A DNA stretch of 40,196 nt, taken from Gemmatimonadota bacterium. Lineage in GTDB: Bacteria > Gemmatimonadota > Gemmatimonadetes > Gemmatimonadales > GWC2-71-9. Where the stretch lies: NCBI GenBank assembly GCA_003221045.1, contig QHUC01000055.1:1-40196 (forward strand). The letters run 5' to 3'. The notes beneath the pieces are model-generated. The model saw only the letters and a program-made list of their open reading frames with translations. It had not been told where the DNA came from and searched no databases. The position numbers and the translations under genes are program-made. How positions within the stretch are numbered: position 1 is the stretch's first letter; each line of letters opens with the position of its first letter. Positions 30,703-40,196 of this stretch are shown here, one piece after another.

Positions 30703-30717
30703 CGCCGTTCCCGCGCT

Positions 30718-30802
<85 letters not shown>

Positions 30803-36638: not shown

Positions 36639-37921
36639 TCACGTCCGTTGCCCCGGGACTCCCAGCTCGGTCATGGCCAGCAGATCGAGCACTTCTTCCA
36701 GATCCTTGCCCTTGAGCAGGCCTTTCTCGATGACCAATTGCCGCACCGTGACGTTCTTCGCCACGGCCTCCTCCGCGAGCTTCGCCGCCTCCGCGTAGCC
36801 GATCTTCGGGGCGAGCGCCGTCACGAGCGCGGGGCTGCGCTCGAGCCAGTGCTCGCACTGCGCGCGATCGGCCTCGACCCCTTCCACGGCGCGCTCCGAC
36901 AGCACGCGCGAGGCGTTGGCGAGGAGCTGCATCGTGAACAGCAAGTTGTGGGCGATGACCGGCATCATCACGTTGAGCTCGAGCTGGCCCGCCTCGCTGG
37001 CGGTAGCGACGGTGACGTCGTTCCCCAGGGCCTGGTAGCAGACCATGTTCACCATCTCCGCGATCGACGGGTTCACCTTCCCCGGCATCCTGAGAGCGCC
37101 GCCGCGTCGCCCATCGACTGCATCAGCTGAACGCGATCCCTCCCCTCCCGGAGCTCGAGCCCGGTGATCGCCCGGAGATGCTTCACCACGAGTGGCGGGT
37201 ACGCCGGCTCGGCGTTCAGTCCCGTTCCGACCGCCGTGCCGCCAATCCCGAGATCGCGCAGGGCATCCGCGGCGCCGGCCACGCGGTCCCGGTTGCGCTC
37301 GACGGTGTGCCCGTAGGCGGTGAACTCCTGGCCGAGGCGAATCGGCGTGGCGTCCTGCAGGTGTGTGCGCCCGGACTTGAGAATGCGGTCGAATGCTCTA
37401 CCCTTCGCCAGGAAGGCGGCGGCCAGCCGCCCCATGGCGTCGAGGAGCGGGGTCAGCTCGGCGAGCGCGGCCAGCCGGATGGCCGTCGGGATCACGTCGT
37501 TGGTTGACTGGGCCATGTTGACGTGATCGTTCGGGTGCACCGGTGCGTAGGCACCGCGCCGAGCGCCCAGCAGCTCGTTCGCGCGGTTGGCGAGGACCTC
37601 GTTCGCGTTCATGTTATGCGAGGTTCCCGCCCCCGCCTGGTACGGGTCCACGACAAACTGGTCCCGGTGCTGACCCCCCAGCACCTCGTCGGCCGCCCGT
37701 ACGATCGCGTCGGCGAACTTCGGATCGAGACGGCCGGTTTCTTTGTGTGTGAGCGCGGCGGCCTTCTTGATCTGCACGACCGCGTCGACGAATGAGGCGA
37801 GGGGTCGGAGGTGGGAGATGGGAAAGTTGCGGCGGGCCCGTTCGGTTTGAATGCCGTAGAGCGCGTCGGCGGGAACCGGCAGTTCACCCAGGGAGTCACG
37901 CTCGACGCGGGTCGCGCTCAT
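36639..37921 (-). pseudogene. aspA: Aspartate ammonia-lyase/class II fumarase family with an apparent deletion/frameshift at about 37088
   Basis: RVERDSLG, YGIQTERA..NF, QAGAGTSHNMNANE, HPNDHVN.AQSTND, SGRTHLQDATP. Then in another frame MPGKVNP, GQLELNVMMP. The DLR...SGP...PGSSI segment is absent. Confidence 0.82.
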
Positions 37922-37976
37922 CGCCTCCGTCCGTCGTTCGGTCACGGCACCGTCGGTCTCGAACCAGGAATTGCCC

Positions 37977-38309
37977 ATGGATACCCAGGACCTGTTGCAC
38001 CACCTCGCCGATCGCGCGCGCTTCTCGGCCACGAAGCCGATCAAGATCGACTGCTTCCGCTCCACGCGGCTCCTCGTCGGTCTCAACTGCTTCGAGCCGG
38101 GTCAGGAGCAGAAGGTGCACGCCCATCCGGGCGCCGACAAATTCTATTTCGTTGTAAGTGGAAAGGCGAGGTTCGCCGTGGGAGAGGAGCGGTTCGAGGC
38201 ACGCCCCGGAGACCTCATCCTGGCCCCCGAGGGAGTTCCGCACGGCGTGGAGCGCGCGCACGAGCGAACGACGGTGCTCGTCGGGATCGCGCCGGCGCCG
38301 GCCGCGTAG
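37977..38309 (+). CDS. Cupin domain protein
   Basis: FEPGQEQKVHAHPGADKFYFVVSG and PGDLILAPEGVPHGV (cupin motifs 1 and 2). Confidence 0.85.
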   Translation: MDTQDLLHHLADRARFSATKPIKIDCFRSTRLLVGLNCFEPGQEQKVHAHPGADKFYFVVSGKARFAVGEERFEARPGDLILAPEGVPHGVERAHERTTVLVGIAPAPAA

Positions 38310-38310
38310 A

Positions 38311-38853
38311 TCACTTCGTCGGCTCGACCCGCAGGCTGTCGTTGAAACGATTGAAATATTCGGTCATCCCGATGACCAGCGTGATCTCGACGATCTGCCC
38401 CTCGTCCCACGCCGCCCGGAGGCGTCCGTAGAGCTCGTCGGTGACGTCGTGACCCCCCCGATGGATCACGTCGGCGTACTCCAGCGCCGTCTGCCACCCT
38501 TGCTCGAGCGCATCGATGGCTCGCTGCCCGCCACGATCCTGGATCGCCCCGAGCAATTCGGCGCTGGCACCCTTCTGTCCCGCCAGGACAGTGTGGGAGT
38601 TCAGTCAGTAACGGCAACGATTCAAGTGCGAGATGCGCACCCACAGGAGCTCTTTGAGGAGCGGCGGAACCGTTCCCTCATTCATCACGGTGCGGAAGTG
38701 CGCGATGAGGGTCCGCAGGTGCGCCGGGCGGAGGGCCACGGTGCGGAACATGTTCGGGATGTTCCCGCGCTCCTGCAAATAGGTGTCGAAGATGGGCCGC
38801 ACCTCGGGCGCGGCCTGCTCCGGCGTGAGTGGCGCAATGCGTGGAGCCGTCAT
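38311..38853 (-). CDS. AhpD/CMD-family peroxidase-like protein, probable selenoprotein (in-frame TGA at 38605-38607, 180 aa with read-through)
   Basis: ORFs 38605..38853 and 38311..38556 are in the same frame. Read-through gives KELLWVRISHLNRCRY-U-LNSH...ALEYAD...WDEGQIVEITLVIGMTEYFNRFNDSL. Confidence 0.85.
38575..38591 (-). promoter_or_regulatory. Candidate bacterial SECIS element
   Basis: mRNA hairpin CUGUCC-UGGCG-GGACAG starting 13 nt after the UGA, with a G-rich apical loop. Confidence 0.55.
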
Positions 38854-39725
38854 GTTGTCTCACCTCTTCGCTTTCCCCAACCGATCTTGAACACCTGCAC
38901 CGCCGCGCGATAGCCAAGGTAGCGCACCATCGCGTAGAAGCCGAGGACCGTCAGGAGCACCGCGGTATAGAAGCGCCACAGGAGGAGCATGCTGACTTGG
39001 CGCGAGCCGAAGTCCCCCGCAAAGCCGTTCAAGAACGCCACCTCGAGTCCCCCGCCTCCCGACGGGAGGGGCACAATGAGGGGCGCGTGGATCAGCGCGA
39101 GCGCACCGAAGAACATCTGGCCGAACGGCGGGGGGTGTGGCAAGCCCCAGGCGAGCGCCGGCAGGATGAGCGCGCGGGCGACCACGCTGATCACCGTGAG
39201 CAGCGCGCCCGACGCGAGCGCCCACCAGGGAGCGCGGCGGACGTGCGCCCAGGCGACGCGCCACTGGCGGCGCACGCGATGGCGGACGAACCCCGCGCGA
39301 GCGAGGCGTTGGAGCAGGTACGCGATCACCAGGACGAGGAGCGCGACGACCTCGACGCTCACCAGTTCGCCGGCGCGGTGGCGATGCAGCCAGGTCGCCG
39401 CGGCGTCCCGCCAGTCGGGCACGTAGTAGGCGAAGAGCGCTGCACCGGCGATCAGGAAGACGGGCCACTCGGCGGCCACCTCGACGCCGATCGCCACGAT
39501 CGCCGTGACCGGTCGCAGCCCCGCCTCGGTGAGGCCCAGAAAGCGCGCGGGCTCACCCCCGAGGCGATTGGGCGTCAGCTGTGAGGCGGCTTCACCGTAG
39601 AGATTGAGCCGAAACGCATCGTCGAACGAGAGACGGCCCCCTGCGGTCCAGACGGCGAGCTGGATCCGCCAGGCGCGGACCACGCAGTCGATGGCGAGCA
39701 GCGCCAGGGAGAGGAGGTGGCCCAC
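38850..39725 (-). CDS. Lysylphosphatidylglycerol synthase TM / flippase-like (UPF0104) membrane protein
   Basis: RAWR, LTPNRLGGEPAR, PLPSGGGGLE, LLLWRFYT, multiple TM helices. Likely GTG start at 39725. Confidence 0.8.
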   Translation of the reverse strand: MGHLLSLALLAIDCVVRAWRIQLAVWTAGGRLSFDDAFRLNLYGEAASQLTPNRLGGEPARFLGLTEAGLRPVTAIVAIGVEVAAEWPVFLIAGAALFAYYVPDWRDAAATWLHRHRAGELVSVEVVALLVLVIAYLLQRLARAGFVRHRVRRQWRVAWAHVRRAPWWALASGALLTVISVVARALILPALAWGLPHPPPFGQMFFGALALIHAPLIVPLPSGGGGLEVAFLNGFAGDFGSRQVSMLLLWRFYTAVLLTVLGFYAMVRYLGYRAAVQVFKIGWGKRRGETT

Positions 39726-39732
39726 GCCAGCG

Positions 39733-39921
39733 TCAGTCGGAGCAGTCGCCAAGGGGGTAGATGAAGCCGCAGTTCGGGCAGGGGTTCTTGCAGCCCCAGG
39801 GCCGGGGTAACACCTCGGCGCCACACCGCAAGCATGTCGGCTGCGGCTTACCCGAGGCGATAGGCGCCGGTGAGGAAGGGGTTGGTGTGGCGCTCGCGGC
39901 CCACGGTGGTTTCGGGTCCAT
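39733..39921 (-). CDS. Small Cys-rich zinc-finger-like protein, start uncertain
   Basis: CLRCG...GCKNPCPNCGFIYPLGDCSD-stop fills the gap between the MBL and flippase genes. Nearest upstream in-frame ATG is 39921, inside the MBL gene. Confidence 0.6.
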   Translation of the reverse strand: MDPKPPWAASATPTPSSPAPIASGKPQPTCLRCGAEVLPRPWGCKNPCPNCGFIYPLGDCSD

Positions 39922-40195
39922 GACCGCTGTACACAATGGTCGAATCGGGGAGCGTAAGCAACTCGCGCTCGATGCTCCGGATGAGCGTCTCCAGGTCGCC
40001 TCCGGGCAGGTCCGCGCGCCCGATGGAGCCCTGGAACAGCACGTCACCCGTGAAGACCACGCCCTGTCCCTCGAACACGACGCTGCCGGGCGAGTGTCCC
40101 GGCGCGTGGCGCACCCGGAACGCGAGCTCCCCGACGGGCAGAACGTCTCCGTGCGCGAGCGCCCGGTCTGGCTCGGGCATCGGCTCGGCGCGCAT
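39848..40195 (-). CDS. MBL-fold metallo-hydrolase (glyoxalase II-like), 5' end beyond the window
   Basis: APGHSPGS, FTGDVLFQGSIGRADLPGG, YSGHGPETTVGRER..NPF. Confidence 0.9.
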   Translation of the reverse strand: MRAEPMPEPDRALAHGDVLPVGELAFRVRHAPGHSPGSVVFEGQGVVFTGDVLFQGSIGRADLPGGDLETLIRSIERELLTLPDSTIVYSGHGPETTVGRERHTNPFLTGAYRLG

Positions 40196-40196
40196 G

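What the first reader, a model, noticed from the sequence alone, without database searches (positions are those of the whole stretch)
38311..38853. Hidden selenoprotein: AhpD/CMD-like protein with a CxxU motif and SECIS-like hairpin
Seen: two ORFs in the track are one reading frame split by a single TGA (38605-38607). The TGA sits exactly where the second Cys of the AhpD/CMD motif C-x2-C-x3-H belongs (C-R-Y-TGA-L-N-S-H). A 6-bp hairpin with a G-rich loop (CUGUCC-UGGCG-GGACAG) starts 13 nt downstream. Known: bacterial Sec insertion uses UGA plus an adjacent 3' stem-loop, and Sec replaces redox Cys in CxxC motifs. Inference: this is a 180-aa Sec-containing peroxidase/reductase that gene callers split in two. 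If the genome has no selA/selB/selC/selD, a conserved UGA here would point to a different recoding or split-protein mechanism, which would be more unusual still.
Basis: partly seen in the sequence, partly recalled or inferred. Interest (0 to 1): 0.85.

Follow-up and report, generated by a model that had tools for sequence, protein, structure and literature searches.

The report
AhpD-like selenoprotein gene, split by callers
This is a real but ordinary selenoprotein gene: a small AhpD-type redox enzyme whose active-site cysteine is replaced by selenocysteine, which gene callers cut in two at the UGA codon.

Summary
On the minus strand, 38853..38311 is one 180-codon frame with a single in-frame TGA (38607-38605, codon 83). 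It sits in the AhpD motif C80-R-Y-U83-L-N-S-H87.

- **Hairpin:** a 7-bp stem with a GGC loop starts 13 nt after the TGA.
- **Conservation:** in 46 of 46 related Gemmatimonadota loci the TGA is in the same column, and 45 keep all 7 hairpin pairs. Five of the 7 pairs show compensatory changes.
- **Cys forms:** 3 of 3 related loci with TGC/TGT in that column have no hairpin.
- **Second phylum:** 79 of 80 loci whose record titles mostly name Acidobacteriota MAGs carry the same TGA and GGC-loop hairpin.
- **Sec machinery:** the window's genome has selA, selB, selD (itself with a TGA) and tRNA-Sec.
- **Genetic code:** TGA is the commonest ordinary stop in this genome.

AhpD-like CxxU selenoproteins have been described since 2005, so this is a new member of a known kind. 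It falls below the cut-offs of the specific NCBIfam models and is fragmented in protein databases.

The gene lies in a conserved same-strand cluster: thioredoxin reductase, MBL-fold hydrolase, then the AhpD-like gene. Its exact substrate is not known, and there is no protein-level evidence.

The parts
38311..38853 (-). AhpD/CMD-family selenoprotein gene: 180 codons plus a TGA stop, read through at codon 83
   Evidence: translation. Pfam CMD 37.4 bits, cut-off 23. TIGR00778 40.8 bits, cut-off 27.8; relatives with one in-frame TGA; both halves conserved and in one frame in 49 of 49 loci.
38605..38607 (-). UGA codon 83, read as selenocysteine; the second position of the CxxC-type motif
   Evidence: Same column is TGA in 46 of 49 Gemmatimonadota loci and 79 of 80 P0044-related loci. 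It is Cys in 21 of 22 fetched database homologues and in PDB chains 2ouw, 2oyo and 6k40.
38575..38591 (-). SECIS-like hairpin: 7-bp stem CUGUCCU/GGGACAG with apical loop GGC, starting 13 nt after the UGA
   Evidence: 99.7% of cells paired, 5 of 7 pairs with changes on both sides, 0 of 500 shuffles as high; loop GGC in 125 of 125 TGA loci, and only 1-2 of 7 pairs in the 3 related Cys-form loci.
38593..38652 (-). Active-site segment: E68 (38652-38650), C80 (38616-38614), U83, H87 (38595-38593)
   Evidence: E68 and H87 are invariant and column 83 is 90% or more Cys in alignment A2/A3. These residues align with the Glu / C-x-Y-C-x-x-S-H of solved AhpD-like chains.
38861..38868 (-). Shine-Dalgarno-like AAGAGGTG, 7 nt upstream of the ATG
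   Evidence: Read directly from the sequence. Not tested.
38850..39824 (-). Upstream membrane-protein gene (LPG_synthase_TM, PF03706). Its TGA stop overlaps the AhpD-like ATG (ATGA). The start codon is uncertain.
   Evidence: 82.4 bits, cut-off 33.4. Present in 32 of 49 related loci.
39848..40195 (-). C-terminal part of an MBL-fold hydrolase gene (weak likeness to glyoxalase II). It runs off the window into a run of N.
   Evidence: Lactamase_B 52.6 bits. TIGR03413 49 bits, below its cut-off of 200.8. N run. Upstream on the same strand in 44 of 49 loci.
37971..38309 (+). Convergent cupin-domain gene ending 2 nt from the selenoprotein gene's stop. Context only.
   Evidence: Cupin_2 57.6 bits. 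Absent from many related loci.

Best explanation
38853..38311 (minus strand) encodes a 180-residue selenoprotein of the AhpD/carboxymuconolactone-decarboxylase superfamily. UGA codon 83 is decoded as selenocysteine by SelB and tRNA-Sec. They are directed by a 7-bp hairpin with a GGC loop that begins 13 nt downstream, inside the coding sequence.

Sec83 takes the place of the second Cys of the C-x-x-C-x-x-x-H motif. By analogy with AhpD-like proteins, Sec83 would be the attacking nucleophile on a peroxide or a partner disulfide. Cys80 would then resolve it as a selenenyl-sulfide, helped by the E68/H87 relay. The oxidised enzyme would be re-reduced by a thiol system, most plausibly thioredoxin reductase/thioredoxin, because trxB lies in the same conserved gene cluster.

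What is shown: the gene, the recoded UGA in that column, the conserved covarying hairpin, the Sec/Cys pairing and the Sec machinery. What is inferred: Sec insertion itself, the catalytic roles of the residues, the substrate and the electron donor.
For: **One frame and family.**
- The frame is single and carries C80-R-Y-U83-L-N-S-H87.
- Pfam CMD and TIGR00778 are above their cut-offs.

**Conserved TGA.**
- In the 61-genome 'relatives' scan, 36 of 38 matching places carry exactly one TGA, at 39-99% identity.
- In the 301-genome phylum scan, 29 of 34 places do.
- 30 of 30 loci examined show C-x-Y-U-L-x-S-H at the homologous place.
- In 49 of 49 loci both halves are conserved in one frame (mean 79.8% and 68.3% identity). 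In 47 of 49 they are separated by a single codon.

**Hairpin.**
- 46 of 46 TGA loci have loop GGC; 45 have 7 of 7 pairs and one has 6 of 7, across 13 stem variants.
- 5 of 7 pairs change on both sides, 99.7% of cells are paired, 0 of 500 shuffles reach this, and slid registers pair at 40-54%.
- The stem is built from codons that are rare in this genome: ACT 2.9% of Thr, GGA 10.8% of Gly, and in relatives TTG 7.7%, GCA 5.2% and AGA 0.9%.

**Sec/Cys pairing.**
- The 3 related Cys-form loci (L056, L066, L071) have only 1-2 of 7 pairs and use common codons.
- Database homologues at 69-79% identity have Cys in the column.

**Sec machinery in the same genome.**
- selA 522.5 bits.
- selB 250.8 bits (284.1 with its C-terminal part).
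- selD 387.3 bits, with its own in-frame TGA.
- tRNA-Sec 77.9 bits, called tRNA-SeC (anticodon tca) by ARAGORN.
- selA is above cut-off in 29 of the 35 relatives that carry the TGA form.

**No code change.** TGA ends 496 of 812 long ORFs, ends this gene, and ends the gene upstream.

**Second phylum.** 79 of 80 P0044-related loci, whose titles mostly name Acidobacteriota/Terriglobales MAGs, have TGA with the same hairpin.

**Function by analogy.**
- PDB chains 2ouw, 2oyo and 6k40 align Cys to U83.
- Passages of PMC8945050 report that a D. radiodurans mutant lacking DR1765 (6k40) is more H2O2-sensitive, and that variants mutated in the CxxC cysteines complement less well.
- trxB (TIGR01292, 359.6 bits, cut-off 343.45) and an MBL-fold gene lie upstream on the same strand in 11 of 14 sampled relatives.
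Against: - There is no protein-level or expression evidence. Nothing here shows that selenium is incorporated.
- The hairpin in this one sequence is not significant on its own (z = -0.77; 2.6% background).
- No Rfam family matched the region at E up to 10, apart from one chance snoRNA hit.
- The genome's selD has a differently shaped hairpin with a UCA loop. No other plausible selenoprotein gene with a GGC-loop hairpin was seen among 45 candidates in the genome. So a shared SelB recognition motif is not shown.
- The protein is below the cut-offs of the models most specific for AhpD-like selenoproteins: TIGR01926 56.3 against 81.8, NF053654 76.1 against 310.
- The lower helix (11-13 with 36-38) shows no covariation.
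- The genome is a draft, 85% complete in 281 contigs.
- The peroxidase role, the Trx/TrxR donor and the roles of E68, C80 and H87 rest on analogy and gene neighbourhood only.
Confidence: 0.9

Rival explanations
1. The TGA is a true stop. The locus is a decayed gene, or makes an 82-residue N-terminal fragment, possibly plus a separately started C-terminal piece from the TTG at 38556.
For: Table 11 gives exactly these two ORFs. Public protein collections hold such fragments.
Against: - The same TGA is kept in 46 of 49 Gemmatimonadota loci and 79 of 80 P0044-related loci.
- Both halves are conserved in frame in 49 of 49 loci.
- The stretch between the TGA and the first possible restart (L84-L100, including the invariant S86-H87-T88) is conserved as protein. 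It would be untranslated in a split gene.
- The fragment would end just before the catalytic residue.
Confidence: 0.03
2. The UGA is read through, but not as selenocysteine. Candidates are Trp, Cys or Gly from a suppressor or near-cognate tRNA, or a variant genetic code.
For: Four database homologues show W in this column. Read-through chemistry cannot be seen from DNA.
Against: - TGA is the commonest stop in the genome (496 of 812 long ORFs). It also terminates this gene.
- Loci related to one W-bearing protein have TGA in 79 of 80 and TGG in none, so W is probably a gene-calling artefact.
- Homologues have Cys, the classic Sec partner.
- A covarying local hairpin and a full selA/B/C/D set are what Sec decoding needs.
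Confidence: 0.04
3. The TGA is an assembly or base-call error for TGC/TGT in this draft genome.
For: The genome is a fragmented draft. A neighbouring lyase gene looks frameshifted.
Against: The same codon occurs in 45 other Gemmatimonadota genomes and 79 further genomes, together with the hairpin and the rare codons that go with it.
Confidence: 0.01

Closest known systems
AhpD-like protein selenoprotein family (COG2128 / TIGR01926, CxxU). Sources, all as passages found by term search: PMC1088965 (2005), PMC1794560 (2006), PMC2398784 (2008), and the table in PMC13188914 (2026)..
   Same: - CxxU redox motif in an AhpD/CMD-type protein of about 180 residues, with Cys homologues widespread.
- A bacterial SECIS with a small apical loop containing G, directly after the UGA.
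- Full-length alignment to TIGR01926 (residues 5-178 to profile positions 2-175 of 178).
   Different: - It scores 56.3 bits against the TIGR01926 cut-off of 81.8, so it is not a member by NCBI's rule.
- It belongs to a Gemmatimonadota/Acidobacteriota-type clade. My two searches found no paper dealing with selenoproteins of Gemmatimonadota (listings and abstract starts only).
- I could not fetch the published representatives to compare them directly.
NF053654 'YciW-related (seleno)protein' and NF041238 'alkylhydroperoxidase-related (seleno)protein' (NCBIfam)
   Same: These are curated AhpD-related families known to include Sec forms. NF053654 is the best NCBIfam match, over residues 5-177.
   Different: 76.1 bits against a cut-off of 310, and 30.2 bits against 175. 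It is a relative, not a member.
AhpD-like protein DR1765 of Deinococcus radiodurans (PDB 6k40), and the 'peroxidase-related' chains 2oyo and 2ouw
   Same: Sequence-level homology over nearly the whole length (E 2.6e-9, 1e-9, 6.5e-12). The C-x-Y-C-x-x-S-H motif and the upstream Glu are aligned. The DR1765 mutant is H2O2-sensitive, and variants mutated in its CxxC cysteines complement less well (PMC8945050 passages).
   Different: Those proteins have Cys where this one has Sec. No activity data exist for this clade. The fold could not be compared because the structure tool was off.
Mycobacterium tuberculosis AhpD (TIGR00777)
   Same: Same superfamily and the same CxxC...H active-site logic. Its residue numbering and its role as AhpC reductase are recalled, and partly supported by PMC8945050 passages.
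   Different: TIGR00777 did not match this protein at E <= 0.001. It matched 8 of the 23 proteins in alignment A3. No lipoamide-system or ahpC neighbour was seen. Here the neighbour is trxB.

Membership tests
Bacterial selenoprotein gene (SelB-dependent UGA recoding) | In-frame UGA with coding conservation on both sides | tested here: met
   In 49 of 49 loci both halves are in the same frame, with mean identity 79.8% (N-terminal half) and 68.3% (C-terminal half).
Bacterial selenoprotein gene (SelB-dependent UGA recoding) | Stem-loop immediately 3' of the UGA with a small apical loop containing G. The criterion is from PMC1088965 passages. The numeric limits of the bSECIS model are only recalled. 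| tested here: met
   7-bp stem, GGC loop, 13 nt after the UGA. Covariation in 5 of 7 pairs. Loop GGC in 125 of 125 TGA loci.
Bacterial selenoprotein gene (SelB-dependent UGA recoding) | Cys in the same column of homologues (Sec/Cys pair) | tested here: met
   21 of 22 fetched homologues have Cys. Cys loci L056, L066, L071 and L095. PDB chains.
Bacterial selenoprotein gene (SelB-dependent UGA recoding) | selA, selB, selD and tRNA-Sec in the same genome | tested here: met
   All four are above their curated cut-offs. ARAGORN calls tRNA-SeC (tca).
Bacterial selenoprotein gene (SelB-dependent UGA recoding) | Selenium actually incorporated at the UGA | not testable with these tools
   Needs 75Se labelling or mass spectrometry.
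AhpD / CMD superfamily | Match to Pfam CMD (PF02627) and the TIGR00778 AhpD core domain above their cut-offs | tested here: met
   37.4 bits against 23. 40.8 bits against 27.8.
AhpD / CMD superfamily | C-x-x-C-x-x-x-H motif with an upstream conserved Glu | tested here: met
   E68, C80, U83 and H87. E68 and H87 are invariant in A2/A3. They align to the same residues in 2ouw, 2oyo and 6k40.
AhpD / CMD superfamily | All-helical AhpD fold | not testable with these tools
Only sequence matches to solved AhpD-like chains are available.
TIGR01926 'peroxidase-related enzyme' (the model listed for the AhpD-like selenoprotein in PMC13188914) | Whole-protein score at or above the curated cut-off (81.8 bits) | tested here: not met
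   56.3 bits, although aligned end to end. All 23 proteins of A3 match at E <= 0.001, best 4.1e-27. Scores against the cut-off are not listed for the others.
NF053654 YciW-related (seleno)protein | Score at or above the cut-off (310 bits) | tested here: not met
   76.1 bits.
Rfam SECIS families | Match to any curated SECIS covariance model | tested here: not met
   Nothing relevant at E up to 10 in 38200-38950. Whether Rfam holds a fitting bacterial model was not checked.

The most novel reading that the evidence does not exclude
This may be a distinct subfamily of AhpD-like selenoproteins shared by Gemmatimonadota and Acidobacteriota, which no model I searched captures: TIGR01926 and NF053654 fall below cut-off and Rfam gave no hit. 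Three features would define it.
- An almost invariant in-frame SECIS: a 7-bp stem and GGC triloop exactly 13 nt after the UGA. It forces rare codons and fixes the residues L-A-(G/R)-(Q/R).
- Membership of a conserved trxB / MBL-fold hydrolase / AhpD-like module, suggesting a thioredoxin-reductase-fed selenol enzyme.
- Sec-to-Cys reversions, once with the SECIS decayed (L056) and once with it still intact (L095). The 2006 survey reported such reversions in only four selenoprotein families, mostly FdhA and SelD.
Probability: 0.35. Interest if true: 0.4.

Novelty: new member of a known kind. Interest (0 to 1): 0.3.

Why it matters
- **Annotation.** The gene is mis-annotated in practice. Close relatives appear in protein collections only as fragments ending at ...CRY, or with W at the UGA. 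That hides an active-site selenocysteine in at least 125 genomes from two phyla common in soil-type metagenomes.
- **Gene finders.** The locus shows cleanly how an in-frame SECIS constrains codon choice and even amino acids. It could therefore serve as a test case for selenoprotein-aware gene finders.
- **Function.** The link to trxB and an MBL-fold hydrolase gives a testable handle on what these uncharacterised AhpD-like enzymes do.
- **Limits.** It does not change what is known about Sec decoding.

Tried and rejected
- **Rfam scan of 38200-38950 at E up to 10.** No SECIS family matched; the only hit was a chance snoRNA.
- **Single-sequence folding.** Not significant, so the case rests on comparison with relatives.
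- **GC3-based scan of the genome for other TGA-interrupted genes.** It returned 63 candidates that look like adjacent genes in one frame. It missed both this gene and selD, so it is uninformative and was dropped.
- **Scan for other TGA sites with a GGC-loop hairpin and open frames.** Of 45 hits, only this gene looks like a selenoprotein. So the GGC loop is not shown to be a genome-wide SECIS signature. selD's hairpin has a UCA loop.
- **Lower helix 11-13 with 36-38 from the MFE fold.** 86.7% paired, no covariation. Not claimed.
- **Tree of 150 rows (FastTree, local support only).**
  - At least 7 Sec/Cys changes, of which 3 are forced by well-supported branches.
  - A 70-row clade has Sec forms at its base and 28 Cys forms nested inside it, which suggests Sec-to-Cys reversion.
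  - The root is weak. The two outgroup rows are not one side of any branch and one falls on the wrong side of the best branch.
  - The database is also biased against Sec forms, because they are split and fall outside the length window.
  - Direction is therefore not claimed.
- **Rows dropped before that tree.** P0039, P0044, P0055 and P0074 (W in the column); P0079 (E); P0066, P0067, P0072 and P0084 (truncated). At the input step I also dropped P0001, P0002, P0123, P0064, P0092, P0032 and P0027, proteins outside 150-215 aa, and loci L051, L055 and L069.
- **Literature.** Searches for 'Gemmatimonadetes' with 'selenocysteine' (14 papers) and 'Gemmatimonad' with 'selenoprotein' (20 papers) listed nothing that, by title and abstract start, deals with selenoproteins of this phylum. 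I read none of those papers. Supplements were not consulted, and the tables of BSepDB (PMC13326102) may well list such genes.
- **Not used.** Complex prediction, read laying, the look-up of sequencing runs and the protein-atlas search, because the open questions would not have been settled by them.
Full report
**What is in the sequence.**
The feature lies on the minus strand. From the ATG at 38853-38851 to the TGA at 38313-38311 there is one 180-codon frame, interrupted once by TGA at 38607-38605, which is codon 83. Table 11 splits it into 38605..38853 (82 aa) and 38311..38556 (81 aa, TTG start). The TGA sits in C80-R-Y-TGA-L-N-S-H87.

Thirteen nucleotides after the TGA comes CUGUCCU-GGC-GGGACAG (38591-38575). 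The ATG overlaps the stop of the upstream gene (ATGA), and AAGAGGTG lies 7 nt upstream of it.

**Is the hairpin more than chance?**
Not in this sequence alone. The 68-nt fold has z = -0.77. In this 68% G+C genome, 2.6% of 59,644 TGA trinucleotides are followed by a 7-bp or longer hairpin of SECIS-like geometry, and 0.08% by this exact geometry. The case therefore rests on comparison with relatives.

**Family.**
- Pfam CMD scores 37.4 bits (cut-off 23), and the AhpD core domain TIGR00778 scores 40.8 (cut-off 27.8).
- The protein aligns end to end with TIGR01926 'peroxidase-related enzyme' (56.3 bits, cut-off 81.8). It also aligns with NF053654 'YciW-related (seleno)protein' (76.1 bits, cut-off 310). 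Both are below cut-off.
- Solved relatives 2ouw, 2oyo and 6k40 (AhpD-like DR1765) align their C-x-Y-C-x-x-S-H with C80...U83...H87.
- In 22 fetched homologues, E68 and H87 are invariant and column 83 is Cys in 21. The first Cys is T or S in three of them, so position 83 is the better conserved of the two.

**Conservation of the TGA.**
- Among 61 genomes of the same genus, family and order, 38 places match at E <= 1e-10. Of these, 36 contain exactly one TGA, at 39-99% identity.
- Among 301 genomes sampled across the phylum, 34 places match at E <= 1e-15 and 29 have one TGA. That tally includes two genomes flagged unpublished, which I left out of everything below.
- 30 of 30 loci examined show C-x-Y-U-L-x-S-H at the homologous place.
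- In 49 of 49 loci the two halves are in one frame. In 47 of them only the single codon lies between the two matches. Mean identity is 79.8% (N-terminal half) and 68.3% (C-terminal half).
- The stretch between the TGA and the first possible restart codon is conserved as protein. This rules out a split gene.

**The hairpin is a conserved RNA element tied to the TGA.**
- In 46 of 46 TGA loci the loop is GGC. The stem has 7 of 7 pairs in 45 loci and 6 of 7 in one, across 13 different stem sequences.
- One locus (L070) has a wholly different stem, CGCAGCU/AGCUGCG, in the same register.
- On the 46-row alignment, 99.7% of stem cells pair and 5 of 7 pairs change on both sides. No shuffle out of 500 reaches the observed values, and sliding the partner by 1-3 columns drops pairing to 40-54%.
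- The changes couple synonymous and non-synonymous sites. For example, Leu CUG to UUG goes with Gly GGA to Arg AGA.
- The stem uses codons that are rare in this genome: ACT 2.9%, TTG 7.7%, GCA 5.2%, AGA 0.9% and GGA 10.8%.
- The three related loci with TGC/TGT (L056, L066, L071) have 1-2 of 7 pairs in that register and use common codons.

**Sec machinery and genetic code.**
- The window's genome (85% complete, 281 contigs) has selA (522.5 bits) and selB (250.8 bits, 284.1 with its C-terminal piece, in a 656-codon open frame).
- It also has selD (387.3 bits), itself with an in-frame TGA in G-A-G-U-A-C-K followed by a hairpin.
- Its tRNA-Sec scores 77.9 bits, and ARAGORN calls it tRNA-SeC with anticodon tca.
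- Of the 35 relatives with the TGA form, 29 have selA above cut-off and 3 have contig-edge fragments. The other 3 have none, and those genomes are 65, 76 and 85% complete.
- Two of the Cys-form genomes (G154, G157; 100% and 96% complete) gave no selA match. The third (G181) has selA.
- TGA ends 496 of 812 long ORFs, ends this gene, and ends the upstream gene, so the code is standard.

**Beyond the phylum.**
- Four database homologues (about 50% identical) show W in the column.
- I took one of them (P0044) to the species-genome collection. Of the 80 best loci, 79 have TGA, one has TGC and none has TGG. Most titles name Acidobacteriota/Terriglobales MAGs and a few name other phyla.
- All 79 have a GGC loop. 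The stem has 7 of 7 pairs in 76 of them and 5 of 7 in three.
- The W is therefore most likely TGA translated as W by a gene caller. I could not see those proteins' own DNA.
- The single TGC locus (L095) keeps a perfect hairpin, which looks like a recent Sec-to-Cys change.

**Annotation state.**
- The best full-length database hits are Cys forms at 79% identity or less.
- Entries more than 80% identical cover only 40-50% of the query.
- The six of these I looked at end at ...NRCRY, some fused to upstream reading frames.

**Neighbourhood.**
- Upstream on the same strand are an LPG_synthase_TM membrane protein (82.4 bits) and an MBL-fold hydrolase. Beyond the window, past a run of N, lies thioredoxin-disulfide reductase (TIGR01292, 359.6 bits, cut-off 343.45).
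- The MBL gene is upstream on the same strand in 44 of 49 loci.
- trxB plus MBL are both upstream on the same strand in 11 of 14 sampled relatives, Cys forms included.
- The membrane protein is present in 32 of 49 loci.
- A fumarase/aspartase-type lyase lies downstream on the same strand.

**How it most likely works.**
- SelB-GTP-Sec-tRNA(Sec) binds the GGC-loop hairpin as the ribosome reaches UGA83 and inserts Sec. This is the established bacterial mechanism, as summarised in PMC1088965 passages. It is inferred here, not shown.
- Sec83 replaces the more conserved Cys of the AhpD motif. By analogy with AhpD-like proteins, it would attack a peroxide or a partner's disulfide, and Cys80 would resolve the intermediate.
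- The analogy rests on DR1765. Its mutant is H2O2-sensitive, and variants mutated in its CxxC cysteines complement less well (PMC8945050 passages).
- The conserved trxB neighbour suggests re-reduction through the thioredoxin system. [quoted passage not shown]
- Substrate and donor remain open.

**What is known.**
- AhpD-like (COG2128, CxxU) and CMD-domain (PF02627, CxxU) selenoproteins were described from the Sargasso Sea in 2005. They were counted among the most abundant families in the GOS data: 299 and 70 sequences, against 902 and 207 Cys homologues.
- They appear in the 2006 genome survey and in a 2026 review table, where 'AhpD-like protein' is tied to TIGR01926 (passages).
- This locus is therefore a new member of a known kind.
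- What may be new is the clade: it is below all specific model cut-offs, spans two phyla, has a nearly fixed SECIS and sits in the trxB-MBL context. The signs of Sec-to-Cys reversion may also be new.
- A FastTree of 150 rows needs at least 7 Sec/Cys changes, and 28 Cys forms nest inside a clade with Sec forms at its base. Rooting and sampling are too weak to fix the direction.

**Verdict.**
I put about 0.9 on this being a genuine selenoprotein gene. Interest is modest (0.3): it is a correct catch of something gene callers miss, but of a kind known for two decades.

Paper supplements were not consulted.

Noticed in passing
G000 contig C5, locus L010 (selD, minus strand): The genome's selenophosphate synthetase is itself a selenoprotein: G-A-G-U-A-C-K with an in-frame TGA, followed by a strong hairpin. 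That hairpin's loop is UCA, unlike the GGC loop of the AhpD-like gene.
   Followed up: partly
L073:693-1655 (-), i.e. G000:C122 just beyond the window's end: A thioredoxin-disulfide reductase gene (TIGR01292, 359.6 bits) lies upstream of the MBL-fold gene on the same strand. The order trxB, MBL, AhpD-like is kept in 11 of 14 sampled relatives.
   Followed up: yes
L073, about 497-545 (immediately after window base 40196): A run of N interrupts the MBL-fold hydrolase gene. Its N-terminal part continues in another frame beyond the N run. The cause could be a scaffold gap or withheld bases.
   Followed up: no
window 36639-38101 (-): The fumarase/aspartase-type lyase gene appears frameshifted near 37073-37100. 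The Lyase_1 match stops at profile position 251 of 312. The ...MPGKVNP... continuation is in another frame (36639-37397). This is either an assembly error or a broken gene.
   Followed up: partly
L095 (genome contigs locus; title names an uncultured Acidobacteriaceae MAG): This is the only one of 80 P0044-related loci with TGC instead of TGA. It still has the perfect 7-bp GGC-loop hairpin, so it looks like a remnant SECIS after a recent Sec-to-Cys change.
   Followed up: partly
L056 (G181), same genus as G090 and G295: This is a Cys form (TGT) with the hairpin gone (1 of 7 pairs), in a genome that still has selA. Two genomes of the same genus carry the TGA form. The protein is identical to database entry P0016, which NCBI names as from a Gemmatimonadales bacterium.
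   Followed up: partly
database proteins P0039, P0044, P0055, P0074; also P0079: Four homologues carry W at the Sec column, probably TGA translated as W. One (P0079) carries E there and has a roughly 26-residue insert; this is unexplained.
   Followed up: partly
database proteins P0100, P0104, P0121: These homologues lack the first Cys of the motif (T or S instead) but keep the second. This suggests a one-Cys mechanism in some branches of the family.
   Followed up: no
G000:C197:1388-1867 (-), locus L051: The same genome holds a second, distant AhpD-like paralogue: 28% identity, no in-frame stop.
   Followed up: no
window 30717-30802 (+): tRNA-Leu (anticodon cag). It also gave a weak sub-threshold hit to the tRNA-Sec model (33.3 bits).
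   Followed up: yes
L039 and L053: In two relatives the AhpD-like gene is inverted relative to the MBL, membrane-protein and lyase genes. The gene itself, its TGA and its hairpin are intact.
   Followed up: no
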